A stretch of DNA of 64,000 nucleotides from positions 62,586-126,585 of the forward strand of contig JALUTT010000077.1 in NCBI GenBank assembly GCA_027021705.1, written 5' to 3'. The position numbers and the translations under genes were made by a program. Origin of the DNA: Anaerolineae bacterium (GTDB lineage: Bacteria; Chloroflexota; Anaerolineae; S140-20). The notes below the pieces were generated by a model, which saw nothing but the letters and a program-made list of their open reading frames with translations, ran no database searches and was not told the DNA's origin. This document shows, in pieces, positions 43,049-60,476 of the stretch (within the stretch, counting starts at the first letter, position 1; each line of letters starts with the position of its first letter).

Positions 43049-43744
43049 ATGAAACTCACCATCCTGATCTGTGTCTACAACGAACGCAAGACCATCCTCA
43101 CCGTCCTGGACCAAGTCCGCGCCGTGGACCTGGGAGAGGGCTGGGAGAAGGAGATCCTGGTCGTGGACAACTTCTCCACCGACGGGACCCGAGAACTGCT
43201 CCGGTCCGTGGAAGGGCCGGAGGTGCGGGTGATCTACCACCCCCGCAACCTGGGCAAGGGGGCCTCCGTTCGCACCGGCATCGCCCACGCCACCGGCGAC
43301 TACCTGGTCATCCAGGACGCCGACCTGGAGTACGACCCGGCGGATTTGCCGCTGCTGCTGGAGAAGATCAACCCCACCCACACCGTGGCCGTCTTCGGAT
43401 CGCGCCGTCTGGGCGGGCGGGCCATCTACCGCTACGCCAAGAACTACTGGGGCGTCGTCTTCCTGACGGCGCTGACCAACTGGCTTTTCGGGGGCCGGCT
43501 GACCGACGTGGCGGTGGGGACCAAGATGGTGCGGCTGGACGTGCTGCGTTCGTTGAACCTGCGCGGCTCCGGCTTCGACCTGGACTTTGAACTGCCCTGC
43601 AAGCTGCTCAAGGCCGGCCACGACATCGTCGAAGTGCCCATCTCCTACAAGCCCCGGACGGTCGAGGAGGGGAAGAAGATCCGGGCCTTCCGCGACGGCC
43701 TGCGAGCCCTTTGGGTCATCCTCCGCGAGCGCCTGATCGGGTAG
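43049..43744 (+). CDS. Glycosyltransferase family 2 (DPM synthase-like)
   Basis: MKLTILICVYNE, VDNFSTDGT, NLGKGA, IQDADLEYDP; the real start is ATG 43049 inside the 42440 ORF. Confidence 0.9.
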   Translation: MKLTILICVYNERKTILTVLDQVRAVDLGEGWEKEILVVDNFSTDGTRELLRSVEGPEVRVIYHPRNLGKGASVRTGIAHATGDYLVIQDADLEYDPADLPLLLEKINPTHTVAVFGSRRLGGRAIYRYAKNYWGVVFLTALTNWLFGGRLTDVAVGTKMVRLDVLRSLNLRGSGFDLDFELPCKLLKAGHDIVEVPISYKPRTVEEGKKIRAFRDGLRALWVILRERLIG

Positions 43745-43752
43745 ATTGCATA

Positions 43753-44289
43753 ATGGATTCCGAGGAACGAAAGCCGTTTCCCAACCGGTGGCAGAGCCGG
43801 ATAGGTGAATATTTCGCCTCCTGGGCAGACCAGGTGGTCCTGGTCTACCTCTTCGGCTCCTGGGCAACAGGGCGAGTCTGGGCTCAGAGCGACTTGGACC
43901 TGGGCGTGCTCTTTGATAGGGCATTGCCCCGCCGGGAGCGATGGGAACTGACCCTCCGTTTCGAGGTTGACTTGGTCGGCTTGCTGAAAGACAAAGGAGA
44001 GATAGATGTGCGGGAACTGAATACCGCGCCGCTCGCCTTCCGTTACCAGGTGATCCGTCATCAACAATGCCTGTATGCCCGCAGTGAAGCCGAGCGAGTT
44101 GCCTTTGAAGCCTACGTGATCAGCGACTACTGCGATTTTAAGCCGGTTCGAGACCGTTACTACCGCTATATGGCCGAGCGACTCCGGCAGGGGGATGTAA
44201 ACTATGCGCTTGCCTCTGGACAACGTCTGGTCGCTCCTCGACCTGCTACGTCAGCAGCGAGACCTTCTTCTGGAGTTACGAGAGATTGA
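43753..44289 (+). CDS. Minimal nucleotidyltransferase antitoxin (MntA-like)
   Basis: YLFGSWATG...SDLDLGV (GSX10DXD), IDV..LN.AP. Confidence 0.85.
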   Translation: MDSEERKPFPNRWQSRIGEYFASWADQVVLVYLFGSWATGRVWAQSDLDLGVLFDRALPRRERWELTLRFEVDLVGLLKDKGEIDVRELNTAPLAFRYQVIRHQQCLYARSEAERVAFEAYVISDYCDFKPVRDRYYRYMAERLRQGDVNYALASGQRLVAPRPATSAARPSSGVTRD

Positions 44290-44650
44290 CTATGCTGACT
44301 TCCTTCAGAATCTCGAACGGCAGTACGCCGTCAAACACGCCCTTCTGCTGGCGATTCAGATCACGCTGGACATCTGCGCCCATCTGATCGCTATTGCCGG
44401 TAGAGGTGTTCCTGATGAATATCGGCAATTGCCTTTGGCCCTGGCCAAGATGGGGGTGATTTCTGACTCTCTTGCTGAGCGGTTAGCCCTGGCAGCAGGG
44501 TTCCGCAATCGCTTGGTGCATGCCTACCGAGACGTAGCTCTGGAGATGGTGTACGAATTTCTATTTGAGGACCTCGGCGACTTCGACGAGTTCCTGCAAG
44601 ACGTCTCGAAGTTCCTGGAACGGATGTCCCGGAACCAGGAGGAGGGATGA
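44204..44650 (+). CDS. HEPN (DUF86/HepT-like) toxin
   Basis: GFRNRLVHAY (RX4H followed by Tyr); directly after the MNT gene. Confidence 0.85.
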   Translation: MRLPLDNVWSLLDLLRQQRDLLLELREIDYADFLQNLERQYAVKHALLLAIQITLDICAHLIAIAGRGVPDEYRQLPLALAKMGVISDSLAERLALAAGFRNRLVHAYRDVALEMVYEFLFEDLGDFDEFLQDVSKFLERMSRNQEEG

Positions 44651-47615: not shown

Positions 47616-47657
47616 AGCGATTCGTGTATTCGTGCCCCATTCGCGGAGTAACGCACG

Positions 47658-50600
47658 ATGGCCCTGCTTGGAGAGTTTCTGATCAACCTGGCCGCCGGCC
47701 TGGCCTACGACCTGCTCAAGGCCGGCGCGGCGCGGCTGAAGGCGCAGGCCCTGGGCGAGCCGGCCCAACGCGCCCTGCGGGGGTGCTACGAAACCGCCTT
47801 CCGGGCGATGCTGGAAGAGGTGGCCACCGGCCTGACGCCTGATGACCGGCGCCGCCTGGAGGACATCCTGCGCCGGTTCGTGGCCCGGCCGGAAGTTGCC
47901 GAAGGGCTGCTGGCCCTGGCCCTGACCGGCGCGCCGCTGCCGGACCTGCCCGCCCTGGAGCGGGCTTTCGCCCGCCAGTTCGACTGGGCCGGCCTGGAGG
48001 TCGGGCCGGGGGCCCGGTTCGACCGGGCCATGCGTGCCCTCCACCGGGGCCTGACCACGGCGCTGCTGGAGGAGGCCGGCCGGCCCGACAGCCCCCTCTT
48101 CAACCGGGTCAACCTGGGGCGGCTGCTGGCCCTTCAGGCGCTGCTCCAGGACCCGGGGCGCGCCCTGGCCGGGGTCAACCGGCGGCTGGCGCGCCTGGAG
48201 GCCCGGGGCGGGCAGACGGTCTACAACATCGTCATCGCCCGGGCCACCGGCGTGGCCATCGGTGACGGGGCGACCGTGCAGGGCTCATTGCCCCCCGATG
48301 TGCAAGACGTGCTGGACGCGATGCTGGCCCTGCTGCGCGAACTACGCTCGGAAGCCGGCGGGCGGAGCATCGCCATCGGCGGCGGGGTCAGCGGCAGCAT
48401 CCTCATCACCGGCGACAACAACATCGTCCAGGGCATCACCCACCTGCCCACCGACTACGGCACGCGCATCCGCAACTTCATCGTCGAGTACACCGGCACG
48501 CCCGAAGAGCCCGTTCCCTTCGGCGGGCGGGAGGCGGCGCTGGCGGAGTTGGACCGTTGGCTGGCCGACGCGGACGCCCCCCCTTACCTGCTCCTGGCCG
48601 CCCCGGCCGGTCGGGGCAAATCGGCCCTGCTGGTGCGCTGGCTGGAGCGGGTGCGCGAGCGCGACCCTGACCTGCCGCCGGTCTTCGTGCCCGTCAGCCT
48701 GCGCTTCAACACCGCCTCCCAGGCCGTCTTCTTCGCCGCCCTGGCCGCCCGCCTGGCCCACCTCTACGGCGAGAAGGTTCCCGCCGACCTGAGCCACGCC
48801 CCCGATTTCTGGCGGGGGATGGTGAGCAGTTTCCTGGGCCAGCCCCCACCCCAGGGCCGCCTGTTGGTGGTCCTGGACGGGCTGGACGAGGCCACCGACT
48901 GGGAGGCGGGGCCGGACCTCTTCCCTTTCCAGCCGCCGCCGGGGGTGCGCGTGGTGGTCTCGGCCCGCTACCTGGCCGACGAGGAAGGGCCGAGCGGTTG
49001 GCTGCGCCGCCTGGGGTGGGACCGCCCCGGCCTGGCCCGCCCCCTCGACCTGGACCCCCTCACCCGCGAGGGCGTGGCCGACGTGCTGGAGCGGATGGGC
49101 TTTCCCCTGGCCGAGTTGGGCCGCCGGGTGGACATCGTGGCCGAGCTGCACCGGTTGAGCGAGGGCGATCCCCTGCTGGTGCGCCTGTACGTGGGCGACC
49201 TGTGGCAGCGGGGGGAGGCGGCCACCCGCCTGCAGCCGGAGGACCTGCGAGGCCTGAAGCCCGGCCTGAAAGGGTATTTTGACGACTGGCTGAAGTATCA
49301 GCGTAAGCAGTGGGGAGAGAGGGCACCGCTCAAGGAGCAGGCCGTGCGGGAGGTGCTCAACCTGCTGGCGGCCGCCCTGGCCCCCCTGATGCAGGACGAC
49401 CTCCTCCGCCTGAGCCCGGACCTGGACACTTGGATGCTGGAGGAGGCCCTGCGCCCCCTGGCCCGGCTGGTCATCGGCGACGGCCGCGAGCAGGGCTATG
49501 CCTTCGGCCACCCCCGCCTGGGCCGGTACTTTTGGGAGAAACTGGGCCGACAGGAACGGCGGGCCCTGGAGGAGCGCTTCCTGACCTGGGGGTGGGAGAC
49601 CTTGGAAGCGCTCAAGCGGCGGGAGATGGCGCCGGCGGACGCGCCGGCCTACCTGGTGCGTGCCCTGGGGGGGCACCTGGTGCGGGCGAAGGCGGGGCCG
49701 GAGGAATGGTTACGGCTGGTAGATGGGGCTTGGGCGGCGGCGGGGGAGGCCCTGGAAGGGGCCTACGGCCTCTTCCTCCAGGACGTGCACCGCGCTTGGC
49801 AGGCCTGCGCTGTCGCCGACGGCGAGCGGGCGGAGCGGGGAGAGAGGGCCCCCTACCTGGGCGGGGAGGTGCGCTGCGCCCTGGTGGAGGCCAGCCTGCA
49901 CGCCCTGGCCGGGAACTTGCCGCCGGAACTGGTGGAGGCAGCGGTGGCGAAGGGGGTATGGACACCCCGCCAGGCCCTGGCCCACGTGCGCCAGATGCCC
50001 GATCCCCGGCAACAGGCCCGTGCCCTCGCCGTCCTGGTCCCCCACCTGCCGGCCCCGCTGCGAGAGCAAGCGCTGAGGGAGGCCCTGGCCGCCGCGCGGG
50101 AAATCAGGGATGCGGCACCACGGGCCGAGGCACTGAGGGAACTGGCTCCCCACCTGCCGGAGCCGCTGAGGGAGCAGGCGCTGAGGGAGGCCCTGGCCGC
50201 CGCGCGGGGAATCAGGGATGCGGCACCACGGGCCGAGGCACTGAGGGAGCTGGCTCCCCACCTGCTGGAGCCGCTGAGGGAGCAGGCGCTGAGGGAGGCC
50301 CTGGCCGCCGCGCGAGAGATTCGGTGGAGCGATGACCGGGCCGAGGCCCTCGCCGCCCTGGCTCCCCACCTGGCCGAGCTGGGGTATCTCCAGGAGGCCC
50401 TGGCCGCCGCGCGAGAGATTCGGTGGAGCGATGACCGGGCCGAGGCCCTCGCCGCCCTGGCCCCCCGCCTGGCCGAGCTGGGGTATCCCCAGGAAGCCCT
50501 GGCCGCCGCGCGGGCGATTGGGCACGAGCGATCCCGGGTCGAGGCCCTCGCCGCCCTGGCCCCCCACCTGCCGGCCCCGCTGGGGGAGCAAGCACTGAGG

Positions 50601-53045
50601 GAGGCCCTGGCCGCCGCGCGGGAGATTCGGTGGAGCGATGACCGGGCCAGGGCACTGAGGAAACTGGCCCCCCACCTGCCGGAGCCGCTGCGGGAGCAGG
50701 CGCTGAGGGAGGCCCTGGCCGCCGCGCGGGAGATTGAGTGGGAGTGGAGCCGGGCCAGGGCCCTCGCCGCCCTGGCCCCCCACCTACCGGCTCCGCTGCT
50801 GGAGGAGGCCCTGACCGCCGCGCGGGAGATTGGGGATGCCGATGACCGGGCCAGGGCCCTCGCCGCCCTGGCCCTCCGCCTGGCCGAGCTGGGGTATCCC
50901 CAGGAGGCCCTGGCCGCCGCGCGGGAGATTGAGCAGGGGTGGATACGGGCCGAGGCCCTCGCCGCCCTGGCCCCCCGCCTGGCCGAGCTGGGGTATCACC
51001 AGGAAGCCCTGGCCGCCGCGCGGGAGGTTGAGGAGGGATGGAAACGGGCCCGTGCCCTCGCCGCCCTGGCCCCCCACCTACCGGCTCCGCTGCTGGAGGA
51101 GGCCCTGGCCGCCGCGCGAGAGATTCGGTGGAGCGATGACCGGTCCGAGGCCCTCGCCGCCCTGGCTCCCCACCTGCCGGAGCCGCTGGGGGAGCAGGCG
51201 CTGAGGGAGGCCCTGGCCGCCGCGCGGGCGATTGGGCACGAGCGATCCCGGGCCGAGGCCCTCGCCGCCCTGGCCCCTCACCTGCCGGCTCCGCTGGGGG
51301 AGCAGGCGCTGAGGGAGGCCCTGACCGCCGCGCGGGAGTTGCCGGAGTGGGAATCTCTCGGGATCCTCGAGACCATGCGCCCACGGGCCGAGGCCCTCGC
51401 CGCCCTGGCCCCCCGCCTGGCCGAGCTGGGGTATCCCCAGGAGGCCCTGGCCGCCGCGCGGGCGATTGGGCACGAGCGATCCCGGGCCGAGGCCCTCGCC
51501 GCCCTGGCCCCCCGCCTGGCCGAGCTGGGGTATCCCCAGGAGGCCCTGGCCGCCGCGCGGGCGATTGAGAGGGAGTGGAGCCGAGCCGAGGCCCTCGCCG
51601 CCCTGGCCCCCCACCTACCGGCTCCGCTGCTGGAGGAGGCCCTGACCGCCGCGCGGGAGATTGGGGATGCCGATGACCGGGCCAGGGCCCTCGCCGCCCT
51701 GGCCCTCCGCCTGGCCGAGCTGGGGTATCCCCAGGAGGCCCTGGCCGCCGCGCGGGAGATTGAGCAGGGGTGGATACGGGCCGAGGCCCTCGCCGCCCTG
51801 GCCCCCCGCCTGGCCGAGCTGGGGTATCACCAGGAAGCCCTGGCCGCCGCGCGGGAGGTTGAGGAGGGATGGAAACGGGCCCGTGCCCTCGCCGCCCTGG
51901 CCCCCCACCTACCGGCTCCGCTGCTGGAGGAGGCCCTGGCCGCCGCGCGAGAGATTCGGTGGAGCGATGACCGGTCCGAGGCCCTCGCCGCCCTGGCTCC
52001 CCACCTGCCGGAGCCGCTGGGGGAGCAGGCGCTGAGGGAGGCCCTGGCCGCCGCGCGGGAAATCAGGAATGCGGCACCACGGGCTGGGGCACTGAGGGAA
52101 CTGGCTCCCCACCTGCCGGAGCCGCTGGGGGAGCAGGCGCTGAGGGAGGCCCTGGCCGCCGCGCGGGAGATTGAGAAGGGATGGGGACGGGCCAAAGTCC
52201 TCGCCGCCCTGGCTCCCCACCTGCCGGAGCCGCTGCGAGAGCAGGCGCTGAGGGAGGCCCTGGCCGCCGCGCGGGAGATTGGGGATGCCTATAGCCAGGC
52301 CGAGGCCCTCGCCGCCCTGGCCCCCCGCCTGCCGAAACCGCTGCGAGAACAAGCGCTGAGGGAGGCCCTGGCCGCCGCGCGGGAGATTGAGAAGGGATGG
52401 GGACGGGCCAAAGTCCTCGCCGCCCTGGCTCCCCACCTGCCGGAGCCGCTGCTGGAGGAGGCCCTGGCCGCCGCGCGGGAAATCAGGGGTGCGGCACCAC
52501 GGGCTGAGGCACTGAGAGAGCTAGCTCCCCACCTGCCGGCCCCGCTGGGGGAGCAGGCGCTGAGGGAGGCCCTGACCGCCGCGCGGGCGATTGGGGATGC
52601 CGATGACCGGGCCAAAGCCCTTGCCGCCCTGGCTCCCCACCTGCCGGTTCCGCTGCTGGAGGAGGCCCTGGCCGCCGCGCGGGAAATCAAGGATGCGGCA
52701 CTACGGGCCAAGACACTGAGGGAGTGGGCCTCCCACCTGCCGGAGCCGCTGGGGGAGCAGGTGCTGAGGGAGGCCCTGACCGCCGCGCGGGAGATAGGGG
52801 ATGCCGATGACCGGGCCAAAGCCCTCGCCGCCCTGGCCCCCCGCCTGGCCGCCTGGGCGGAGGAGGACCGGGCCACCGTCCACGCCCTCTGGCGGGAAAC
52901 GCTCCCCTCCCTGGCCCGCCGCACCCGCCGCCACCTCCTGGCCGACCTCCGCGCCCTGGAGCCCCTCATCGCCGCCCTAGGCGGCACCGAGGCCGTTGCC
53001 GAGACCTCCCGCGCCATCCGCGATGTGGGTCGGTGGTGGCCGTAG
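47658..53045 (+). CDS. NLR-like STAND NTPase (NACHT/AAA_16-like) with 27 C-terminal helical repeats
   Basis: FGGRE, Walker A APAGRGKS, Walker B LLVVLDGLDE, GDPL, then 32-36 aa repeats EALAAAREI-x5-RAEALAALAPHL...; single intact 1795-aa ORF. Confidence 0.88.
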   Translation: MALLGEFLINLAAGLAYDLLKAGAARLKAQALGEPAQRALRGCYETAFRAMLEEVATGLTPDDRRRLEDILRRFVARPEVAEGLLALALTGAPLPDLPALERAFARQFDWAGLEVGPGARFDRAMRALHRGLTTALLEEAGRPDSPLFNRVNLGRLLALQALLQDPGRALAGVNRRLARLEARGGQTVYNIVIARATGVAIGDGATVQGSLPPDVQDVLDAMLALLRELRSEAGGRSIAIGGGVSGSILITGDNNIVQGITHLPTDYGTRIRNFIVEYTGTPEEPVPFGGREAALAELDRWLADADAPPYLLLAAPAGRGKSALLVRWLERVRERDPDLPPVFVPVSLRFNTASQAVFFAALAARLAHLYGEKVPADLSHAPDFWRGMVSSFLGQPPPQGRLLVVLDGLDEATDWEAGPDLFPFQPPPGVRVVVSARYLADEEGPSGWLRRLGWDRPGLARPLDLDPLTREGVADVLERMGFPLAELGRRVDIVAELHRLSEGDPLLVRLYVGDLWQRGEAATRLQPEDLRGLKPGLKGYFDDWLKYQRKQWGERAPLKEQAVREVLNLLAAALAPLMQDDLLRLSPDLDTWMLEEALRPLARLVIGDGREQGYAFGHPRLGRYFWEKLGRQERRALEERFLTWGWETLEALKRREMAPADAPAYLVRALGGHLVRAKAGPEEWLRLVDGAWAAAGEALEGAYGLFLQDVHRAWQACAVADGERAERGERAPYLGGEVRCALVEASLHALAGNLPPELVEAAVAKGVWTPRQALAHVRQMPDPRQQARALAVLVPHLPAPLREQALREALAAAREIRDAAPRAEALRELAPHLPEPLREQALREALAAARGIRDAAPRAEALRELAPHLLEPLREQALREALAAAREIRWSDDRAEALAALAPHLAELGYLQEALAAAREIRWSDDRAEALAALAPRLAELGYPQEALAAARAIGHERSRVEALAALAPHLPAPLGEQALREALAAAREIRWSDDRARALRKLAPHLPEPLREQALREALAAAREIEWEWSRARALAALAPHLPAPLLEEALTAAREIGDADDRARALAALALRLAELGYPQEALAAAREIEQGWIRAEALAALAPRLAELGYHQEALAAAREVEEGWKRARALAALAPHLPAPLLEEALAAAREIRWSDDRSEALAALAPHLPEPLGEQALREALAAARAIGHERSRAEALAALAPHLPAPLGEQALREALTAARELPEWESLGILETMRPRAEALAALAPRLAELGYPQEALAAARAIGHERSRAEALAALAPRLAELGYPQEALAAARAIEREWSRAEALAALAPHLPAPLLEEALTAAREIGDADDRARALAALALRLAELGYPQEALAAAREIEQGWIRAEALAALAPRLAELGYHQEALAAAREVEEGWKRARALAALAPHLPAPLLEEALAAAREIRWSDDRSEALAALAPHLPEPLGEQALREALAAAREIRNAAPRAGALRELAPHLPEPLGEQALREALAAAREIEKGWGRAKVLAALAPHLPEPLREQALREALAAAREIGDAYSQAEALAALAPRLPKPLREQALREALAAAREIEKGWGRAKVLAALAPHLPEPLLEEALAAAREIRGAAPRAEALRELAPHLPAPLGEQALREALTAARAIGDADDRAKALAALAPHLPVPLLEEALAAAREIKDAALRAKTLREWASHLPEPLGEQVLREALTAAREIGDADDRAKALAALAPRLAAWAEEDRATVHALWRETLPSLARRTRRHLLADLRALEPLIAALGGTEAVAETSRAIRDVGRWWP

Positions 53046-53046
53046 G

Positions 53047-53680
53047 GCCGTCCACGAATGGGGCCACGAATGCCCGAATAGGTTCCCACCGCCATTCGTG
53101 TATTCGTGAACAATTCGTGGACGGCCGCCCGCCATTCGTGCATTCGTGAAAAATTCGTGGACGGCCGGCCCACGCCGTCCACGAATGGGGCCACGAATGC
53201 ACGAATAGGCCCCGCCGCCATTCGTGCATTCGTGAGAAATTCGTGGACGGCCGGCCCGTGCCATCCACGAACGGGGCCACGAATGCCCGAATAGACCCCG
53301 CCGCCATTCGTGTATTCGTGAACAATTCGTGGGCGGCCGGCCTGTGCCATCCACGAATGGGGCCACGAATGCCCGAATAGGTTCCCGCCGCCATTCGTGT
53401 ATTCGTGAGAGATTCGTGGCCGGCCGGCCCGCGCCATCCACGAACGGGGCCACGAATGCCCGAATAGACCCCGCCGCCATTCGTGCATTCGTGAGAGATT
53501 CGTGGACGGCCGGCCCGTGCCATCCACGAATGGGGGCGCGAATACCCGAATAGGTTCCCGCCGCCATTCGTGGATTCGTGGGAGATTCGTGGACGGCCGG
53601 CCCGCGCCATCCACGAATGGGGCCACGAATGCCCGAATAGGTTCCCGCCGCCATTCGTGCATTCGTGAGAAATTCGTGGA
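53047..53680. repeat. Tandem array of seven ~86-bp palindromic (CACGAAT x3 / ATTCGTG x3) units
   Basis: Unit starts at 53047, 53174, 53260, 53346, 53433, 53519, 53606; an extra half-unit lies at about 53128-53166. Confidence 0.9.
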
Positions 53681-53865
53681 GCGTGACCAAAAGCTGTTGA
53701 ACCACTGAAGCGCTGAGAGAAATGAGCTCACTGAGGAGTTGCGCGCCTCCTCCCCGTCGTCAGGGCATGGCCTTGCCGACGACCTAGGCCGCCCTGCCCA
53801 AGGCTCAGTGTCTTCACCTCCCTCAGTGCGTCAGTGATTCTGAGGGCCTGGTTGGCGGACGGACA

Positions 53866-54460
53866 AGCTGTCAACGGATTGGGAACGGATTGAACGGATT
53901 TGGAACGGATGGGGTGGTGCTCCCAAGAGGGCTTGTCCAGACCTTCGCACCGCTTCGTGCTCTTTGAGCTCTTGGTGTCCTTCGTGTCTCCCACCGTGGC
54001 CGGAGCGGACGAGCTGTCAACGGATTGGGAACGGATTGAACGGATTTGGAACGGATGGGGTGGTGCTCCCAAGAGGGCTTGTCCAGACCTTCGCACCGCT
54101 TCGTGCTCTTTGAGCTCTTGGTGCCCTTCGTGTCTCCCACCGTGGCCGGAGCGGACGAGCTGTCAACGGATTGGGAACGGATTGAACGGATGGGAGGCAT
54201 AGTCCTCAGTCCTCGGTCCACAGTCCGCTGCTAGGCTGCTAGGCCGCTAGGCCGCCAGTCGCTATGCCGCTATGCCGCCCTGGAACGGATAGCTGTCAAC
54301 GGATTGGGGAACGGATTGAACGGATGGGGGGCTCCCAAGAGGGCTTGTCCAGACCTTCGCACCGCTTCGTGCTCTTTGAGCTCTTGGTGCCCTTCGTGTC
54401 TCCCGCCGTGGCCGGAGCGGACGAGCTGTCAACGGATTGGGGAACGGATTGAACGGATGG
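53866..54460. repeat. Tandem ~146-bp units (AACGGATT-type + CTTCGTG-type subrepeats)
   Basis: agctgtcaacggatt starts at 53866, 54012, 54158 (partial), 54291 (133 bp) and 54424 (partial); bracketed by a 39-bp direct repeat at 53802-53840 and 54469-54507. Confidence 0.88.
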
Positions 54461-54647
54461 GGGACGACGGCTCAGTGTCTTCACCTCCCTCAGTGCGTCA
54501 GTGATTCGGAGGGCTTTTGAACCGAGCGTGACCGGAAGCTGCTGGGGTAAAGATGCAGGGGCGTTGCGCTTCTACCGCCTCCAACCCATTTTGGTCACAC
54601 TCAAATTCGTGGACGGCCGGCCCGTGCCATCCACGAGCGGACGCCAA

Positions 54648-56855
54648 CTACCGGATGAAGCTCTGCGTCCAGGCCGGCCGGTCCGGCTTGGGGTCCATCG
54701 CCTGCCAAGCCTCGTCCGTCAGCCGGTCGGCCATCGGCTGCTTGAACTCGTAGTAGCTGAAGGTCGCCCCCGTCATCAGCCAGACCTGCCCCTCCACGGG
54801 AACCAGGACGTAGAGGGTGAAGGCATCCCCCACCCCCTCCTCCAGCACCTGCCCGCTGTTGGGGTCGGTGTGCACGTCGGCGACGATGGCCATCCGCTCA
54901 TCGGCCTCCGACGCCACCTCCTCCTGGATGACCGGCGAGAAGGTGGTCAGCGATTCCAGGGTGGAGCCGATGCGGCGCAGGGTGGCGTACTCCTCCGCGC
55001 TCAGCGTCTCCCCTCGCAACTCCTTCTCGGCCATCGTCTTGAGGGCGAGGAGGAGCGATTCCATCCGCTCCAGCTTCTCCCGGGGCTCCTTGTCCAGCAG
55101 CCCCCGGCTCTCCAGCCCCTCCCGGGTCTGGCGGGTGAGCGCGGCCAGCCGGGCGTAGACCTGGGGCCGGGGCTCGACGTAGGCCGGCGGACGCTCCGGC
55201 TCCGGCATCGCCCCCGTGGCCCGCACGGTGTAGCTCTGCTTGGCGTAGAGGATGGTGTCGTGGCGCAGCTCCGTCCAGGAGCCCAGCCAGGTGTGCAGGT
55301 CCTTGTCCACCCAGGCCGTCGTCTGCATGAAGGCGGGATACCCCTCCCCCGGCGGCGTCAGCAGCGGGAGCAGGCTGTAGAGCCAGTTCCAGTAGAGGTT
55401 GCCGGTCCACTGCTCCTCCGGCAGGGCGGCGAAGGCCCCCCGAAGCCGGGCCACCTGCTCCTCGTACCCCTCGTAGTCGGCGTCGCCCTCGGCCCGCAGG
55501 ATCTCCAGCGCCCGCTCCGAGCCCAGGACGGCGGGGATGTCGAGCCCGCGCGGGAAGCCCCGGATGGGGCCGGCGTCGGACAGGACCAGGGTGAAGGGCC
55601 GGCCGCTGCCCCGGTAGCGCCCCACCCGGTCGTAGACGAGCTGCTGGAAGATGTAGCTGTCGGGGATGAAGCGCTGGCCCATAAAGCGGAAGGAGCGGGT
55701 CTGGGCGACCACGTCCTCCCAGTCCTCCACGTAGCCGCCGACGATCTGGGGGGGGCGGAGGGTGGCCGTCCGCTCGCGGAAGGCGTCCAGCCGTTCGTCG
55801 TCGGTCAGGTCCTCCAACGTGGGCAGCCCCCCGTAGACCTGCCGGGCCAGATCGGTGTAGTCGTAGACGGTCAGGTCGTCGGCCGCCCCGACGAAGAAGA
55901 CCGTCGGCTCGTAGATCCGCTCCCAGGTCTCCCGTTGGTCGCGTTGGTGGAGGGCCAGGACGATCAGGAGGGCCTGCCGGGTCTCCCGCCGGGCCTGCTC
56001 CTCCTCCCGCACCGTCGGGTGGAAGCCCATCCGGCCATACCACATCATCGCCCGGAAGTAGCGCTCGAAGGTCTCGTTGCGGGTGTAGTGGCCCCGGGGG
56101 ACGTACTGGCTGTAGTCCTCGGGGTAGCCGAAGATGGGGGAGGGGGCGAAGCCGGCGTGCCGCTCGATCAGGCTCAGCTCCTGCTGCACCACCTCCTCGA
56201 CCGGCGCGGGGATGGGGGCCGTCGGGTCCAAGAGCCGGCGGGCGACGGCGAAGAAGGCGACGTTCCGCCGGGCCGCCTCCTTGACCGGCTCCGGCGCAGC
56301 CCGGTACTGGGCCTGGGCCTCCTCCAGCATCGCCTGGGTCAGGGCCTCCAGATCGGCGACGAAGTGGCGGTACTCGGCCAGGCGCAGGGTGTAGTCGTAG
56401 AGGATGTGGTAGGTGTGGAGGAGGGCGTCGGTGGTGACGAAGATGGGGAGACCTGCCTCGGCGGCCCGCTTGTAGGGCAGGTAGATCTGGGGCCAAGCGC
56501 CGGGGACGACGACGAAGCCCTGGGCCTCCAGAGCGGCGGCCTGGGCCTCGTTCAGTTGGAGGGCCAGCTCGGGGTTGGCGATGCTCCCCAGGTCGAAGGA
56601 GTAGGGGGCCACCGAGGGCGTGACCTCAACGGCGACGGGCTTGTACTCGGCGAAGTGGCCCCGGGCCGTGGTCAGGCCGGTGATGGGGGGGAGCGGCGTT
56701 GGCGTCGCCTCGACCGTCGGGGGGAGGGGCGATGGGGAGGCAGGCGCCCCTTCCTCGGGGGGGCGCGTCGGCGTCTCCCCCGGCGAAGGCCGGGCGCAGC
56801 CGGCCAGGATGAGCAGGCTGAGGATCCAGAGGCTTCTCACGATCGCTTTCGCCAT
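54648..56855 (-). CDS. DUF3160-family lipoprotein
   Basis: Lipobox ILAGC; FVTTD..LH.YH, EDYSQYVPRGHYT, FRFMGQRFIPDS, SWTELRHDTILYAKQ, FSYYEF, RLTDEAW. Confidence 0.85.
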   Translation of the reverse strand: MAKAIVRSLWILSLLILAGCARPSPGETPTRPPEEGAPASPSPLPPTVEATPTPLPPITGLTTARGHFAEYKPVAVEVTPSVAPYSFDLGSIANPELALQLNEAQAAALEAQGFVVVPGAWPQIYLPYKRAAEAGLPIFVTTDALLHTYHILYDYTLRLAEYRHFVADLEALTQAMLEEAQAQYRAAPEPVKEAARRNVAFFAVARRLLDPTAPIPAPVEEVVQQELSLIERHAGFAPSPIFGYPEDYSQYVPRGHYTRNETFERYFRAMMWYGRMGFHPTVREEEQARRETRQALLIVLALHQRDQRETWERIYEPTVFFVGAADDLTVYDYTDLARQVYGGLPTLEDLTDDERLDAFRERTATLRPPQIVGGYVEDWEDVVAQTRSFRFMGQRFIPDSYIFQQLVYDRVGRYRGSGRPFTLVLSDAGPIRGFPRGLDIPAVLGSERALEILRAEGDADYEGYEEQVARLRGAFAALPEEQWTGNLYWNWLYSLLPLLTPPGEGYPAFMQTTAWVDKDLHTWLGSWTELRHDTILYAKQSYTVRATGAMPEPERPPAYVEPRPQVYARLAALTRQTREGLESRGLLDKEPREKLERMESLLLALKTMAEKELRGETLSAEEYATLRRIGSTLESLTTFSPVIQEEVASEADERMAIVADVHTDPNSGQVLEEGVGDAFTLYVLVPVEGQVWLMTGATFSYYEFKQPMADRLTDEAWQAMDPKPDRPAWTQSFIR

Positions 56856-56871
56856 TGGGCACCCCCTCGTT

Positions 56872-56945
56872 AACCAAGTTCAGCCTACCCTCCCGCAGGT
56901 TCCCGGTCGGAAACGCGCTTAACCTGCGGGAGGGTGAACGGTTAC
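56872..56945. mobile_element. Internally deleted copy of the 120-bp MITE-like element
   Basis: ttcagcctaccctcccgcaggt...acctgcgggagggtgaacggttac with the centre missing; junction at a gtcg microhomology. Confidence 0.65.
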
Positions 56946-57254
56946 GTTATCTCCCCGCAGGGTGTTTCCCTTCGGCCCGGCCCGGGGAACGTCCGGGCCG
57001 AGTGGGCAGCACCCCGCAGGCCGTCTCCCAGCCCCCGAGGGAGGCTTTTCCCGTCTTGGCCGGGCGGTTCGGCGGTCGGCCGGCAGCCTACCCGCCGGGC
57101 CGGTCCGCCGGCCCCTGGGGAAGCGCCTCCGGCCTGCTCCGGGCTTCCGGGCCGCGCGGCACCCGTCCATGCCGAGAGGGCAGGCCGTCGGCAAAGGGGC
57201 CGCCCACGATCCCGGGCCCGACAAAGAGGGGGATGCGATCGGGTTCCTGGCCGC

Positions 57255-57773
57255 TCAAGAGCCCCCGGAAAAGGGATGGCGCTCCGGAGTTCCTGCGTGC
57301 AGCCGTTCGTAGAGGCGTCCGAAGCCCATAGGACCTGCCTCTAGGTCCATCGCCACCGTCACCGTCTTGGCCCGGTCCGCCATGCGCACGGTGATGTAGG
57401 CTGCCGGCTGGCCCGCTTCCCCCGTCTTCGGTCCGTACCAATCCTCCCATTGGAAGAACCCTTCTTCGATGATGAACCGGAAGAGGTTGGCCAGCTCCTC
57501 CTCGCTCAGACGGCCCTCCCAGAGGGTGGGTTGTCCTTGGGCGTCGTACTCGACCCAGACGATGCGCCCATCCCCCCACACCCGCACGTCGGGAACCCGG
57601 TCCTGCGCTCCGGCGGTAGTCAGCGGCCCGCCGAGGACGTCGGCCTCGATGACCAGGGCCTCGGGGCGGCGGTCCCAATCCACCGGGATGGGGGTGACGG
57701 GGACCCGACAGCCGACCGGCAGAAAGGTCATAACCATCAGGCTCAAGAGGACAGCAGCGACTCTTCGGGCCAT
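57255..57773 (-). CDS. Hypothetical lipoprotein
   Basis: ATG 57773 after GGAGAG; lipobox-like LPVGC; upstream TTGCTC-N17-TATAAT (57818-57846). Confidence 0.6.
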   Translation of the reverse strand: MARRVAAVLLSLMVMTFLPVGCRVPVTPIPVDWDRRPEALVIEADVLGGPLTTAGAQDRVPDVRVWGDGRIVWVEYDAQGQPTLWEGRLSEEELANLFRFIIEEGFFQWEDWYGPKTGEAGQPAAYITVRMADRAKTVTVAMDLEAGPMGFGRLYERLHAGTPERHPFSGGS

Positions 57774-57852
57774 CGGACTCTCCAGAACGGGCATGGCTCC
57801 GGGCGTTTCCACCCTTCATTATACCCCACGCCCAACCAGAGAGCAAGGGAGT

Positions 57853-57977
57853 GACGGCCGCGGGCCGAGCGGCATAGCGGCCTGGCGGCCTGGCGGCGGA
57901 CTGCGTAGCCGACCACGGACCGCCGACCGCCGACCGCCGACCGCCGACCGAGGACTAAGGACTACGGACCAAGGACC
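57853..57977. repeat. Composite 7/8-mer tandem tract
   Basis: (GCGGCCTG)n, (CCGCCGA)n, (AGGACTA)n; overlaps the stop of the VIT gene. Confidence 0.75.
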
Positions 57978-60303
57978 ATCCAACCACCCCAAGCATCAGC
58001 CCCAGCAGCAGGGCTCCCAGGCAGAGGCCGGTCTTCTCCGCCATCGGTTCGGTGGAGGGGGCGGGCGTGGACGACGGGTTGCCGACCTGAGCCGTCGGGC
58101 CGGCCTCCGGCGTGGCCGGGAGCGGGGTGGGCAGCTCGATGGGCTCCCCCTCCCCCTCGACGACCTGGTAGGCTGTCTCCCCCACGACGACGATCACCCG
58201 GCGGCCCAGGGCGAAGTAGGCCCCCAGGTCCGGTCGGGCCTCCAGCAGCCGGAAGTAGTCCTCCGACCCGAAGCCTACCCGCCGGGGCTGCATCCGGGCG
58301 GGGTCGAAGGTCGTGTCGGTCCAGACGCCCTCGCGCAGGACGAAGGTCTTGGGGCCGACGACGCGCACGGGCGCGGCCTCCGGGCCGGCCTCCCCCGGCA
58401 TCCCCGTCGGCACCTCCATCGGCACCTCCGCCTCCCGCATCCCGCCCACCTCGGCCGCCTTCTCCACGGCGGGCGCACCCACCGCCTCCGCCGTGGCGGC
58501 CGGGAACTGGGAGAGCATATCCTCGGCGGCCCGACGCCGGCCCTCCTCTGTCAGGACCTCGGTCGGCTCCTCTACCAGGTAGGAGGTGTAGGGGGTGACG
58601 ATGCCGTAGCGGACGCTGAGGGCCACGATCTCGTCCACCAGCTCCCGGCTCTCGCCGTGCAGCCGGATCTGGTCCAGCAGGTAGCCGATCTTGCGGGTCG
58701 CCCAGAGGCGGGGGATGGCCGGATCGCCCCCCTGCCGGCGGAAGGTCAGGCCCTCGTAGGTGAACACCTGGAGGCGGTCGTCCACCCGCCCGGTGAGGCG
58801 GAGGCGGGCCGTCCCGCCCTCGCGGTAGCGCCCGACGACGATCAACTGGCTGCCGGCGAAGAGGTCGGGCAGGGGGTAGGGGTAGAGGTCCTCGACCTGA
58901 ACCCCCTCCACCTCCAGGCGCAGGTCGGTCAGCACCGGGGTGCTGATCTTGGCGTAGAGGCCGGAGACCACCTCGTCAATCCGCTCGCCGGGCCGGACGT
59001 AGAGGCTGACCCCACCGTGCTCCCGGGCCAGCGTGTCCAGCAGCACCGTGTTCACGTCGTCCCCCACGCCGAAGGTGAAGACCCGCACGTTGGGGGGCAG
59101 CGCCTGGGTCACGTTGTTCAGGATCTCCGGCACCTCCACCACGCCGCTGGTGGGGAGGCCGTCGGTCAGGAAGAGGAGCACCGTGGGGCGGGTGGGGTCC
59201 ACGCCGGCCAGCGTCTCCAGCAGCGCCCGGTTGATGTCGGTGCCGCCGACCGCCTGCAGCCCATCCACCCAGCGCAGGGCGGCCTCCCGCTCCTTCAGGG
59301 GCTGCGGAGAGCGGGCGAAGGTGCGCACGCCGGTGCTGAAGTCGGTGATGTTGAAGCGGTCCTCGGGGTTCAGGTGCTCCAGCACGTAGCGCAGCGCCGC
59401 CTTGGCCTGGTCCAGCTTCTCCCCCTCCATCGAGCCGGAGGTGTCCAGCACCAGCAGCACGTCGCGGGCCACCACCGCCTCCTGCTCCACCGCGACCCGA
59501 GGGGCGACCAGGAGCAGGAAGAAGCCGTCTTCTTCACCCTCGCGGAAGCTGAGCAGGTTGGCCCCCACCTCCTCGGGGGAGACGGTGTAGTAGAGGACGA
59601 AGTCCCGGTCGGGCAGCACGTCCTGGGCCTCGTAGCCGACCGTGGCGTGGTAGTCGTCGGGCCGGTCCACCGCCACCCGGTGGCTGGAGGAGTAGACCGC
59701 CTTGATGGGCACATCCGACTCGATGGAGACGTTGATGCTGACCGACTCCAAGGGGCGGGCGGAGAAGCGCTCGGTGTCCAGGGGATAGACGTAGCGGACC
59801 AGTCCGTCTTCGATGGGGAGCACCTGGCTGTACTCCAGTTCGATGCGGCGCTCCTCCCCCGGCGGGATGGGGAAGATGCGCACTTGGAAGGCTCCCCGGC
59901 CCAGGTACTCCAGGAGGGCGGGGTCACGGCGCCGGCGGACGATCTCCTCGTAGATGCGCCGGGCCTGGTCGGCATCCAGCACCTTCCCCTCGACCCGCCG
60001 GCCGTCCACCCACATCGCGAAGTCCTGGACGGAGGCATCGGCGGGCAGGGGGAAGATGTAGGTCCCTTCCAGCTCCCAGCGGGATTCGTTGACGAAGACC
60101 TGGTCCACCCGGGTGGTGGCCACCTGGTCCTTGATCGTCACCGTCACCCGATGGCTCTTGATGGTCAGCCAGACCGGCTCCGGGGCGGGCGGGAGCGGCG
60201 GCGGGTCCACGATGATGATGCCGTCGGCCGCTGCCGGCAGGACCGTGGTCAGGGAGAGCAGGATGCTCAGGACAAGGGTAGCGAAGACGGTGCGGCTCCT
60301 CAT
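57955..60303 (-). CDS. Secreted VIT + vWA domain protein (inter-alpha-trypsin inhibitor-like)
   Basis: Signal peptide, VIT (EGTYIFPLP, DPALLEY), MIDAS DTSGS, GGTDI, FLTDG, LWATRKI, C-terminal TM. Confidence 0.9.
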   Translation of the reverse strand: MRSRTVFATLVLSILLSLTTVLPAAADGIIIVDPPPLPPAPEPVWLTIKSHRVTVTIKDQVATTRVDQVFVNESRWELEGTYIFPLPADASVQDFAMWVDGRRVEGKVLDADQARRIYEEIVRRRRDPALLEYLGRGAFQVRIFPIPPGEERRIELEYSQVLPIEDGLVRYVYPLDTERFSARPLESVSINVSIESDVPIKAVYSSSHRVAVDRPDDYHATVGYEAQDVLPDRDFVLYYTVSPEEVGANLLSFREGEEDGFFLLLVAPRVAVEQEAVVARDVLLVLDTSGSMEGEKLDQAKAALRYVLEHLNPEDRFNITDFSTGVRTFARSPQPLKEREAALRWVDGLQAVGGTDINRALLETLAGVDPTRPTVLLFLTDGLPTSGVVEVPEILNNVTQALPPNVRVFTFGVGDDVNTVLLDTLAREHGGVSLYVRPGERIDEVVSGLYAKISTPVLTDLRLEVEGVQVEDLYPYPLPDLFAGSQLIVVGRYREGGTARLRLTGRVDDRLQVFTYEGLTFRRQGGDPAIPRLWATRKIGYLLDQIRLHGESRELVDEIVALSVRYGIVTPYTSYLVEEPTEVLTEEGRRRAAEDMLSQFPAATAEAVGAPAVEKAAEVGGMREAEVPMEVPTGMPGEAGPEAAPVRVVGPKTFVLREGVWTDTTFDPARMQPRRVGFGSEDYFRLLEARPDLGAYFALGRRVIVVVGETAYQVVEGEGEPIELPTPLPATPEAGPTAQVGNPSSTPAPSTEPMAEKTGLCLGALLLGLMLGVVGWSLVRSP

Positions 60304-60356
60304 CGTTCTCCTCCATCGCGCATCGCGCAGGGTGTCGCCGGTGTCATTCGTTCACC

Positions 60357-60476
60357 GTGTCTACTCAGCCTACCCTCCCGCAGGTTACCGGTCGAGGTGC
60401 TTTCAGCCCCGATGGGCTGTTTGAAGCACGGCTTCGCGTCGGAACACGTCTAACCTGCGGGAGGGTGAACGGTTAC
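60357..60476. mobile_element. 120-bp MITE-like element, copy with 8-bp target-site duplication
   Basis: Flanked by CGTTCACC at 60349-60356 and 60477-60484. Confidence 0.8.

What the first reader, a model, noticed from the sequence alone, without database searches (positions are those of the whole stretch)
50079..52850. Combinatorial sensor array: 27 near-identical repeats with swappable 5-residue cassettes
Seen: constant frame EALAAAREI-[x5]-RAEALAALAPH with three linker types (36, 33, 32 aa). Cassette order: RDAAP, RDAAP, RWSDD, RWSDD, GHERS, RWSDD, EWEWS, GDADD, EQGWI, EEGWK, RWSDD, GHERS, one long loop (LPEWESLGILETMRP), GHERS, EREWS, GDADD, EQGWI, EEGWK, RWSDD, RNAAP, EKGWG, GDAYS, EKGWG, RGAAP, GDADD, KDAAL, GDADD. 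Reused cassettes share codons yet pair with different linkers. Known analogy: fungal NLRs with highly conserved repeats reshuffle to change specificity. Inference: a recombination-diversified immune receptor with a limited alphabet of Trp/charged binding loops; the best candidate here for an undescribed system.
Basis: partly seen in the sequence, partly recalled or inferred. Interest (0 to 1): 0.82.

Follow-up and report, generated by a model that had tools for sequence, protein, structure and literature searches.

The report
Bacterial NLR-like sensor, homogenised repeat array
The 27 near-identical repeats are real and form the helical sensor tail of a large immune-receptor-like ATPase from an uncultured Chloroflexota bacterium; it is a striking example of a receptor type already described in fungi and filamentous bacteria.

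Summary

The protein is a three-part STAND/NLR-like NTPase:
- an N-terminal helical domain that is weakly NNH2-like;
- a NOD module whose predicted fold matches Avs3, Apaf-1 and NOD2;
- a two-helix alpha-solenoid repeat array, closed by a conserved cap ending in WWP.

Variation sits in the inter-helix loop and the first turn of helix B (positions 10-14, then 17 and 20/21). The same positions vary in 11 related arrays.

The "cassettes" are not discrete swappable modules. They travel with linked changes in the flanking helices, fall into about five point-mutation lineages, and have no donor copies elsewhere in the genome. The mosaic fits intragenic unequal crossing-over or gene conversion, including an exact 470-nt duplication.

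High internal repeat conservation in bacterial NLRs, and its proposed role in diversification, is in print (Dyrka et al. 2020 preprint). This scan has noted the same kind on other DNA (e1-3772532, e1-3127676, e1-2524468).

The repeat-plus-cap module has no Pfam match but is widespread (1217 representative clusters) and is joined to both NB-ARC and NACHT-type NODs.

Repeat order and number rest on a metagenome assembly that independent contigs cannot span. Strain polymorphism could not be tested.

The parts
47658..53045 (+). Whole ORF, 1795 aa: NLR-like STAND NTPase with a repeat sensor
47658..48137 (+). N-terminal helical domain (aa 1 to about 160), weakly NNH2-like. Presumed effector or adaptor.
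   Evidence: Pfam NNH2 E=0.00095, 19.3 bits, below the cut-off of 27. AF2 gives a helical bundle with pLDDT 87-95 over aa 1-90. Atlas lead to NNH2 at 0.85.
48138..48434 (+). Low-confidence helical or disordered linker (aa about 161-259)
   Evidence: pLDDT 25-69
48435..49964 (+). NOD module (aa about 260-769): P-loop NTPase plus helical and winged-helix domains
   Evidence: PADLOC STAND_TPR E=6.2e-16 over aa 283-438. Foldseek matches Avs3, Apaf-1, CED-4, NOD2 and plant resistosomes at E 4e-8 to 1e-5. About 60 invariant columns among 38 homologues.
48603..48626 (+). Walker A (aa 316-323, P-A-G-R-G-K-S-A)
   Evidence: G318, G320, K321 and S322 are invariant in alignment A1; sequence
48864..48890 (+). 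Walker B with acidic extension (aa 403-411, V-V-L-D-G-L-D-E-A)
   Evidence: D407, G408, D410 and E411 are invariant
49965..50078 (+). Degenerate repeat 0 (aa 770-807)
   Evidence: The unit HMM finds 28 units starting at aa 775. It is part of the solenoid model.
50079..52847 (+). 27 homogenised two-helix repeats of 36, 33 or 32 aa
50759..51228 (+). First copy of an exact 470-nt duplication (end of repeat 7 to start of repeat 12)
51590..52059 (+). Second copy of the exact 470-nt duplication (end of repeat 15 to start of repeat 20), offset 831 nt
   Evidence: In run X1 a piece inside this copy has k-mer depth 123, against 54-70 for single-copy pieces.
51315..51440 (+). Repeat 13, with a 14-aa loop in place of the 5-aa patch
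   Evidence: An exact 104-nt Logan contig covers 51309-51412.
52848..53042 (+). C-terminal cap (65 aa) ending in WWP
   Evidence: phmmer against 1.84 billion representatives gives 1217 proteins at E<=0.001. The match lies at the extreme C-terminus in nearly all of the 150 listed.

Best explanation
This is an all-in-one NLR-like (STAND) conflict or immune receptor of an uncultured Chloroflexota bacterium.

Shown:
- It has a P-loop NOD module with a STAND fold.
- A C-terminal alpha-solenoid of 27-28 two-helix repeats is closed by a conserved cap.
- The N-terminal helical domain occupies the position where close homologues carry proteases, TIR, nuclease or CHAT effectors.
- Repeat frames are about 81% identical. 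Nearly all diversity sits at loop positions 10-14 and at positions 17 and 20/21 on one face of helix B.
- Units are mosaics, and a 470-nt block was duplicated without a single later change.

Inferred:
- The variable residues of successive units line up as a continuous stripe on the solenoid and form the ligand-binding surface.
- Ligand binding releases autoinhibition, the NOD exchanges nucleotide and oligomerises, and the N-terminal domain then kills or arrests the cell (abortive defence, or possibly kin discrimination).
- The high DNA identity of the units is both cause and consequence of frequent intragenic unequal crossing-over and gene conversion. These duplicate, delete and re-order units.
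- Point mutations in the patch create new unit types and selection keeps them. Specificity therefore changes quickly without a dedicated diversification enzyme.
For: Architecture:
- Walker A and Walker B are invariant in 38 homologues.
- PADLOC STAND_TPR, E=6e-16.
- AF2 model of aa 1-800 has pLDDT 84.3, and its fold matches Avs3 8dgc, Apaf-1 3sfz, NOD2 5irm and CED-4.
- The 318 homologues of aa 1-800 share about 70% of the query (the NOD) and swap their N-termini: precomputed Pfam gives DUF4062, trypsin, TIR, SEFIR, CHAT, caspase, Mrr_cat and NNH.

Sensor:
- AF2 of aa 770-1147 has pLDDT 93.6 and pTM 0.80 and is made entirely of helix pairs.
- Its fold matches TPR and HEAT solenoids.

Variable patch:
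- Entropy is 1.8-2.8 bits at positions 10-14 and 1.6 at position 17, against 0.9 or less elsewhere.
- The same positions are the most variable in most of 11 other arrays, 5 in the same genome and 6 from metagenomes; the pattern blurs in the most diverged arrays, P0006 and C73.
- Nei-Gojobori over 21 unique unit cores: patch pN 0.588, pS 0.466 (ratio 1.58); frame pN 0.110, pS 0.218 (ratio 0.46).
- Trp makes up 14 of the 130 patch residues.

Recombination:
- All four combinations of GHERS or RWSDD with the AELGY or PxPLxEQxLR linker are present.
- Exact duplications of 470, 100 and 85 nt.
- In run X1, k-mer depth of a piece inside the duplicated block is 123, against 54-70 for unique pieces.

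Concept in print: Dyrka et al. 2020; fungal reviews and papers.
Against: - No functional data exist for any member of this subfamily.
- The N-terminal domain matches NNH2 only below Pfam's threshold (19.3 bits against 27), so the output is unknown.
- Pfam NACHT (13.2 bits against 26.7) and NPHP3_N (20.6 against 24.8) are also below threshold.
- The gene's neighbours are housekeeping-like (PfkB kinase, GNAT, DUF92 membrane protein, DUF3160, VIT-VWA). A MNT/HepT toxin-antitoxin pair 3 kb upstream is the only defence-type neighbour.
- The dN/dS contrast is crude. Patch sites are saturated, units recombine, and pairs are not independent.
- Polymorphism of repeat number or order between strains, the key prediction, was not shown.
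- Surface exposure of the patch is inferred from helix periodicity and the DSSP string. It was not measured on coordinates.
Confidence: 0.74

Rival explanations
1. Neutral young array. The repeats are a structural scaffold or spacer that expanded recently by replication slippage or unequal crossing-over. The loop varies only because exposed loops are the least constrained sites, with no selection for diversity and no receptor function.
For: The exact 470-nt duplication shows very recent expansion. The ratio of 1.58 comes from saturated, non-independent comparisons. Loops vary most in any solenoid.
Against: The same patch positions are the most variable in most of 11 independent arrays, including old, diverged ones (C73, P0004, P0007). 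The patch is rich in Trp and charged residues, and distinct unit types persist in several copies. The array is fused to a STAND NOD, whose homologues carry death or defence effectors.
Confidence: 0.12
2. Assembly artefact. The order and number of units, or part of them, is a chimera of strains or paralogues built by a short-read metagenome assembler.
For: The genome is a 183-contig draft from a metagenome. Three sister arrays are broken at contig ends or exist only as repeat-only contigs of 1.0-1.5 kb (C51, C119, C183). Logan contigs of the best-holding run stop at nt 50006 and give only 80-190-nt pieces inside the array. Short-read assemblies of fungal NLRs with such repeats were shown to be unreliable (PMC12222747, passages read).
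Against: Apart from one 470-nt direct duplicate, every 127-mer in the array is unique. The path A-R-B-R-C is the only one that uses all segments (the path argument is my inference). The frame stays open through units of three lengths. Pieces in run X1 match with 0 differences, and their depths fit one or two copies. The longest exact stretch shared with any paralogous array is 28 nt, so paralogue chimerism is unlikely. A collapsed copy number of the R-B loop cannot be excluded.
Confidence: 0.09
3. Programmed cassette switching. A dedicated mechanism (silent donor cassettes, a site-specific recombinase, or a diversity-generating retroelement) writes 5-residue cassettes into a constant frame.
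For: Identical 15-nt cassettes recur in different contexts.
Against: Of the 14 cassette strings, 13 occur nowhere else in the 5.19-Mb draft. The 14th (GDADD) has two hits in unrelated contexts. Cassette borders are not fixed, and linked flanking variants travel with each cassette. The ORFs scanned between 43.7 and 60.3 kb hold no reverse transcriptase or recombinase. Differences between cassettes are not confined to one base type.
Confidence: 0.03

Closest known systems
Fungal NLRs with highly internally conserved (HIC) repeats: Podospora HET-E, HET-D and the HNWD family, and the ANK/TPR/WD HIC NLRs of Dyrka et al. 2014 (PMC4986451)
   Same: Both have three parts: effector, NOD and repeats. 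Repeat units are about 80-90% identical. Diversity is confined to a few positions predicted to lie on the surface. Units are shuffled by recombination, and only some NLR paralogues in a genome are homogenised. Here C77, C162 and C51/C119/C183 are homogenised, while C73 is not.
   Different: The repeat here is a 32-36-aa two-helix solenoid unit, not WD40, ANK or canonical TPR. No exchange between paralogous arrays is seen (28 nt or less shared), unlike what is reported for HNWD genes (review passage). The organism is a bacterium, and no allorecognition or defence phenotype is known.
[quoted passage not shown] 2020 preprint, 10.1101/2020.01.06.895854; passage read)
   Same: The organism type, the architecture and the degree of internal repeat identity are the same. 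[quoted passage not shown]
   Different: That text names WD and TPR repeats joined to NB-ARC or NACHT. The present repeat-plus-WWP-cap module gets no Pfam TPR, HEAT or WD hit. In the papers I read I did not find it described as a family.
Bacterial NACHT proteins of the 'antigen receptor type' (Kibby et al. 2022 preprint/2023, 10.1101/2022.07.19.500537) and Avs antiviral STAND proteins (Gao et al. 2022, recalled; Avs3 structure 8dgc)
   Same: A STAND NOD with a C-terminal array of superstructure-forming repeats as the presumed sensor, and an N-terminal NNH-type helical or enzymatic effector. Avs3 is the top fold match.
   Different: The characterised Avs and bNACHT sensors are not reported, in the passages I read, to be internally homogenised. 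Sequence-level membership is not met: PADLOC matches only STAND_TPR over the P-loop, and NACHT is below Pfam's cut-off.
DGR-diversified STAND sensors of multicellular bacteria (Dore et al. 2024, PMC10907252)
   Same: Targeted diversification of the C-terminal sensor of STAND NTPases in multicellular or filamentous bacteria.
   Different: The mechanism differs. In that system a reverse transcriptase mutates a C-type lectin fold at adenines. Here there is no reverse transcriptase and no template repeat, and diversity arises by repeat recombination plus point mutation.

Membership tests
STAND NTPase / NLR-like tripartite receptor | P-loop NTPase with Walker A GxxxxGK[ST] and Walker B hhhhD followed by acidic residues | tested here: met
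   G318, G320, K321, S322 and D407, G408, D410, E411 are invariant among 38 homologues; sequence
STAND NTPase / NLR-like tripartite receptor | NOD fold (NBD, helical and winged-helix domains) like Apaf-1, NOD2 or Avs | tested here: met
   AF2 pLDDT is mostly above 90 over aa 260-760. Foldseek: 8dgc_B 4.4e-8, 3sfz 1.2e-6 (TMq 0.34, rmsd 7.7 over 461 columns), 5irm, 4m9s.
STAND NTPase / NLR-like tripartite receptor | C-terminal superstructure-forming repeats | tested here: met
   Alpha-solenoid model with pLDDT 93.6; TPR and HEAT fold matches
STAND NTPase / NLR-like tripartite receptor | N-terminal effector or adaptor domain | tested here: inconclusive
   NNH2 scores 19.3 bits against a cut-off of 27. 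A helical bundle is modelled. Homologues carry known effectors at this position.
STAND NTPase / NLR-like tripartite receptor | Ligand-induced oligomerisation and a defence or cell-death phenotype | not testable with these tools
   Needs experiments
Pfam NACHT (PF05729) / NPHP3_N (PF24883) | Score at or above the family's gathering threshold | tested here: not met
   NACHT 13.2 against 26.7; NPHP3_N 20.6 against 24.8. Some homologues pass NPHP3_N or AAA_16. The clade (NACHT or NB-ARC) is left open.
NLRs with highly internally conserved repeats (fungal HIC type) | Repeat units about 80% or more identical to one another | tested here: met
   Mean pairwise identity of the 21 frame positions is 0.81. 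Sister arrays score 0.88 and 0.95.
NLRs with highly internally conserved repeats (fungal HIC type) | Variation confined to a few positions with an excess of non-synonymous change | tested here: inconclusive
   The concentration is clear. The ratio is 1.58 in the patch against 0.46 in the frame, but the sites are saturated and the units recombine.
NLRs with highly internally conserved repeats (fungal HIC type) | Repeat number or order polymorphic between strains | tested here: inconclusive
   No protein closer than 80% in the search of aa 1-800. No orthologue in the 30 relatives searched. Only short variant joints in other metagenomes, which the tool itself warns may come from repeats or other organisms.
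NLRs with highly internally conserved repeats (fungal HIC type) | Repeat exchange between paralogous genes | tested here: not met
   The longest exact stretch shared between this array and the five others is 17-28 nt
Pfam HEAT / TPR repeat families | Sequence match to a HEAT or TPR profile | tested here: not met
   No HEAT or TPR family at E<=0.1. The resemblance is at fold level only. The PDB sequence hit is TON_1535, 3zpj, at E=6e-6.
Donor-cassette or DGR-type programmed diversification | Silent donor copies or a template repeat, plus a recombinase or reverse transcriptase | tested here: not met
   This applies to the 94.9%-complete draft and to the ORFs scanned between 43.7 and 60.3 kb.

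The most novel reading that the evidence does not exclude
The 32-36-aa repeat plus WWP cap is an unnamed, very widespread, portable sensor module, joined to both NB-ARC and NACHT-type NODs. On this reading it works as a combinatorial 'repeat-code' receptor. Each unit's patch of 5-8 residues reads a short stretch of an extended ligand. In filamentous Chloroflexota the arrays are reshuffled so often that cells or filaments of one population carry different receptors, a recombination-based repertoire comparable to lamprey VLRs or fungal HIC NLRs.
Probability: 0.12. Interest if true: 0.78.

Novelty: new member of a known kind. Interest (0 to 1): 0.4.

Why it matters
This is a very clean bacterial example of the "homogenised frame, hypervariable patch" design known from fungal NLRs. 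It has 27-28 units, a fresh 470-nt duplication and unit lineages that can be traced by point mutation. It supports the view that recombination-driven receptor diversification predates eukaryotes.

Two practical points follow.
- The repeat-plus-cap sensor module has no Pfam model although it occurs in more than 1000 representative clusters. It is shared between NB-ARC and NACHT-type NODs and would merit a family definition.
- Many database entries carrying the cap are fragments of 60-300 aa. These arrays evidently break short-read assemblies, so their diversity is under-sampled.

Tried and rejected
- **Pfam RhoGAP hit** (E=5.6e-6, no stretch passing on its own, aa 1683-1730). Rejected as a low-complexity artefact of the repeats.
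- **NCBIfam.** No family matched.
- **Strain comparison through relatives.** Any match at E<=0.001 occurred in 5 of 31 genomes, G000 included. Outside G000 the best was 31% identity over part of the NOD, so there is no orthologue.
- **Strain comparison through metagenome contigs.** Of 79 pattern matches, 7 encode relatives and one of those is the window's own contig. The other 6 are 73-81% identical. tblastn with PfkB, GNAT, DUF92 and the two downstream + ORFs found none of them in these 6 loci. Four of the six are only 2.3-4.9 kb long, so they hold little flanking DNA.
- **Sequencing runs.** All four runs are Logan contigs and none spans the array. Variant joints inside it (for example 51764->52404 at depth 3.1 in X1, 51470->50330 in X3, 50690->51979 and 50836->50434 in X4) have short sides or low depth. 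They may come from paralogues or other organisms, so they say nothing either way about polymorphism.
- **Cluster look-up for near-identical proteins.** Not available.
- **Donor cassettes.** None found.
- **Exchange between paralogous arrays.** None found.
- **PDB sequence search with the NOD.** No hit at E<=1.
- **Atlas search of the N-terminus.** Scores of 0.86 or less, which are leads only.
- **Literature searches**. These found the general concept but no paper that names this repeat-plus-cap family. Marold et al. 2015 and Hu et al. 2017 are known to me only as citations inside Dyrka et al. 2020 and were not read.
- **Supplements.** None of any paper was opened.
Full report
**Observation**

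Window 47658-53045 (+) is one open frame of 1795 aa. The anchor EAL[AT]AAR occurs 27 times from aa 808 (nt 50079). The core of the last unit ends at nt 52847.

Unit lengths are 36 aa (12 units), 33 aa (7) and 32 aa (6). Repeat 13 is 42 aa because a 14-residue loop replaces the 5-residue patch, and the last unit is terminal.

Tandem Repeats Finder sees the array on its own, with scores of 1242-1610. A unit HMM adds a degenerate unit 0 at about aa 775, making 28.

**What the protein is**

- *NOD module, sequence.* Pfam gives only sub-threshold NACHT, NPHP3_N and NNH2 hits. PADLOC's STAND_TPR model matches aa 283-438 at E=6e-16. Walker A (G318, G320, K321, S322) and Walker B with its acidic tail (D407, G408, D410, E411) are invariant in an alignment of 38 homologues.
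- *NOD module, fold.* An AlphaFold2 model of aa 1-800 built on that alignment has mean pLDDT 84.3, mostly above 90 across aa 260-760. Its best PDB fold matches are Avs3, Apaf-1, CED-4, NOD2, plant resistosomes and NLRPs. The module is therefore a STAND NOD. Whether it belongs to the NACHT or NB-ARC clade stays open.
- *Homologues.* A search with aa 1-800 found 318 homologues at E<=0.001 among the 8000 candidates scored. The listed ones share roughly 66-74% of the query, which is the NOD. Their precomputed N-terminal Pfam domains include DUF4062, trypsin-like peptidase, TIR, SEFIR, CHAT, caspase, Mrr nuclease and NNH. That modular effector swapping is typical of conflict-system STAND proteins.
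- *N-terminus.* In this protein it is a confident helical bundle (aa 1-90, pLDDT 87-95) followed by a poorly predicted linker. It resembles NNH2 only weakly.
- *Organism.* Source names on homologues (Anaerolineales, Ktedonobacteria, Chloroflexia, Nitrospira, Acidobacteria) and earlier scan notes on this genome point to an uncultured Chloroflexota bacterium. The best-holding run is labelled a hydrothermal vent metagenome.

**The repeat fold**

A single-sequence AF2 model of aa 770-1147 is confident (pLDDT 93.6, pTM 0.80) and consists only of helix pairs.

- Mapping the DSSP string onto the units gives helix A as the second half of the linker plus E-A-L-A-A-A-R-E.
- The loop is I-x1-x2.
- Helix B starts at x3 and runs to P-H-L.
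- Foldseek matches TPR proteins (LGN/Pins, OGT) and TON_1535 by E-value.
- The best global superposition is with HEAT-type solenoids: 9j5i_A at TMq 0.60 and RanBP5 6xte at TMq 0.57.
- By sequence, the only PDB hit of note is TON_1535.
- No Pfam HEAT or TPR model matches.

**Where the variation lies**

- Across the 27 units, entropy is 1.8-2.8 bits at core positions 10-14, 1.6 at position 17 and 0.9 or less elsewhere.
- Positions 13/14, 17 and 20/21 have i, i+3/4, i+7 spacing. The invariant Leu and Ala residues (16, 19, 22/23, 26) fill the other face. I infer that the variable residues form one exposed face of helix B, continuous with the loop. This was not measured on coordinates.
- The same columns are the most variable in most of 11 other arrays, 5 in the same genome and 6 from metagenomes. 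Their frame identity ranges from 0.51 to 0.95, and the pattern blurs in the most diverged ones, P0006 and C73.
- A Nei-Gojobori count over 21 unique cores gives pN 0.588 and pS 0.466 for the patch, against pN 0.110 and pS 0.218 for the frame. The contrast points towards diversifying selection. It is crude, because the patch sites are saturated and the units recombine.
- Trp accounts for 14 of the 130 patch residues.

**Are the patches swappable cassettes?**

Not as discrete modules.

- *Linked variants.* Each patch type travels with linked variants. The xxAAP types come with GAAATC in helix A and an R-E-L-A-P-H-L helix B. GHERS comes with A-R-A-I, and GDADD with Thr in helix A.
- *Linker linkage.* Linker class is linked to the last codons of helix B: P-R-L goes with AELGY, and CTA-Leu with PxPLLE. 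There are exceptions, namely repeats 3, 22, 23 and 25.
- *Scattered breakpoints.* Repeat 6 combines RWSDD with an AAP-type helix B, so breakpoints are not fixed.
- *Recombination is required.* All four combinations of GHERS or RWSDD with the AELGY or PxPLxEQxLR linker occur. Given identical 15-nt patches, that needs recombination between units.
- *Unit lineages.* The 13 five-residue patches fall into about five lineages related by one to three point changes: AGGGAT/AGGAAT/AGGGGT/AAGGAT...; EWEWS and EREWS, which differ by one base; EQGWI, EEGWK and EKGWG; and GDADD and GDAYS. The "alphabet" is a genealogy of duplicated units rather than a library.
- *Recent duplication.* A 470-nt block (50759-51228) recurs exactly at 51590-52059. 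Smaller exact repeats of 100, 85 and 72 nt also exist.
- *No donors or exchange.* No patch string occurs elsewhere in the genome except two chance GDADD 15-mers in unrelated contexts. The array shares at most 28 nt of exact sequence with any paralogous array.
- *No dedicated enzyme nearby.* No reverse transcriptase or recombinase is among the ORFs scanned nearby.

The mechanism that fits is ordinary homologous recombination within the array (unequal crossing-over and gene conversion) plus point mutation in the patch.

**Reliability of the array**

- G000 is a 183-contig draft, 94.9% complete.
- Sister arrays are broken at contig ends: C51, and the repeat-only contigs C119 and C183.
- The best-holding run, X1, is probably the source, so it is not independent support. 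Its Logan contigs stop at nt 50006 and cover the array only as exact pieces of 83-188 nt.
- Apart from the 470-nt duplicate, every 127-mer in the array is unique. I infer that the assembled order is then the only path that uses all segments once. The copy number of the duplicated loop could still be wrong.
- Depths fit the assembly: 69.5 in the flank, 54 for the unique repeat 13 piece and 123 for a piece inside the duplicate.
- A paper on Podospora shows that short-read assemblies of such NLRs tend to be wrong (PMC12222747, passages read).
- I therefore treat the units and their local junctions as verified, and the total number of units as provisional.

**Strain polymorphism**

This could not be tested.

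- No protein closer than 80% identity was found.
- No orthologue was found in the 30 relatives searched.
- The six related metagenome loci are 73-81% identical and not syntenic.
- Variant joints in other runs are too short or too shallow to interpret.

**Family context**

- The genome holds at least five genes with this repeat type: C77 (28 units), C52 (26, a roughly 40-aa variant), C162 (17), C73 (17, diverged), and C51 with the fragments C119 and C183.
- The 65-aa cap ending in WWP finds 1217 representative clusters at E<=0.001 and 176 at E<=1e-10. The match lies at the very C-terminus in nearly all of the 150 listed, and many of those proteins are fragments of 60-300 aa.
- I picked 18 of the listed proteins for their length (799 aa or more). 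Ten carry a Pfam NB-ARC domain. Six have NACHT, NPHP3_N or AAA_16-type hits, two of them only below threshold. Two show no NOD hit.
- The N-termini of those 18 include Mrr nuclease, CHAT, trypsin and HTH domains. The sensor module is thus portable across STAND clades.

**Comparison with what is known**

- Dyrka et al. 2020 (passage read) state that bacterial NLRs, like fungal ones, include WD and TPR repeats with 80-90% internal identity. They suggest these may be under a regime allowing rapid diversification.
- Kibby et al. (passages read) class repeat-bearing bacterial NACHT proteins as "antigen receptor-type".
- Fungal work describes shuffling of highly conserved repeats.
- The kind is therefore known. 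This scan has already noted it on other DNA (e1-3772532, e1-3127676, e1-2524468). I did not check those notes.
- Four things are specific here. The repeat family has no Pfam model. The array is very large. The duplication is fresh. Homogenisation is strictly within the gene.

**Verdict**

The "cassette" and "undescribed system" parts are overstated. This is a new member of a known kind, of moderate interest.

Noticed in passing
window 53046-53680 and 47617-47645: A palindromic ATTCGTG/CACGAAT element forms an 86-nt tandem array (6.4 copies) directly after the stop codon, and a partial copy lies directly before the start codon. The motif occurs 134 times on 64 contigs. In run X1 its k-mer depth is about 2700, against 70 for the flanks. 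Copies also lie next to the paralogues on C162 and C73. It looks like a REP/MITE-type dispersed repeat, as earlier scan notes found in this genome.
   Followed up: partly
window 53856-54191, with a further copy near 54290-54450: A 146-nt tandem repeat (2.3 copies, 98% matches) holding AACGGATTGGG sub-repeats, in the non-coding gap downstream of the gene. Unexplained.
   Followed up: no
window 43711-44650: A nucleotidyltransferase (Polbeta/MNT) and HepT-like RNase pair, that is a type VII toxin-antitoxin module, about 3 kb upstream of the NLR-like gene.
   Followed up: no
window 54501-60453: The long + strand ORFs (790 and 994 aa) have no Pfam hit. The opposite-strand ORFs are real genes: DUF3160 (54648-56855, -, E=3e-219) and a VIT-VWA protein (57955-60303, -). 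The + ORFs are probably shadow frames of this high-GC DNA.
   Followed up: partly
L006 (G000:C52:8859-13232) and L007/L009 (G000:C73): Paralogous STAND genes in the same genome. C52 carries a very homogenised variant unit of about 40 aa, again with a 5-residue variable patch. C73 carries a diverged, non-homogenised array of the same family.
   Followed up: partly
proteins P0122-P0269: The WWP cap, and so the sensor module, is attached to NB-ARC-type NODs in 10 of the 18 long proteins I sampled, and to NACHT/NPHP3_N-type NODs in 6. Many database entries with the cap are fragments of 60-300 aa, probably from arrays that broke assemblies.
   Followed up: partly
G000 contigs C119 (1516 nt) and C183 (1005 nt): Contigs made only of repeats. 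They share exact stretches of 85-117 nt with the truncated array at the end of C51, so they are probably pieces of one unassembled sister array.
   Followed up: partly
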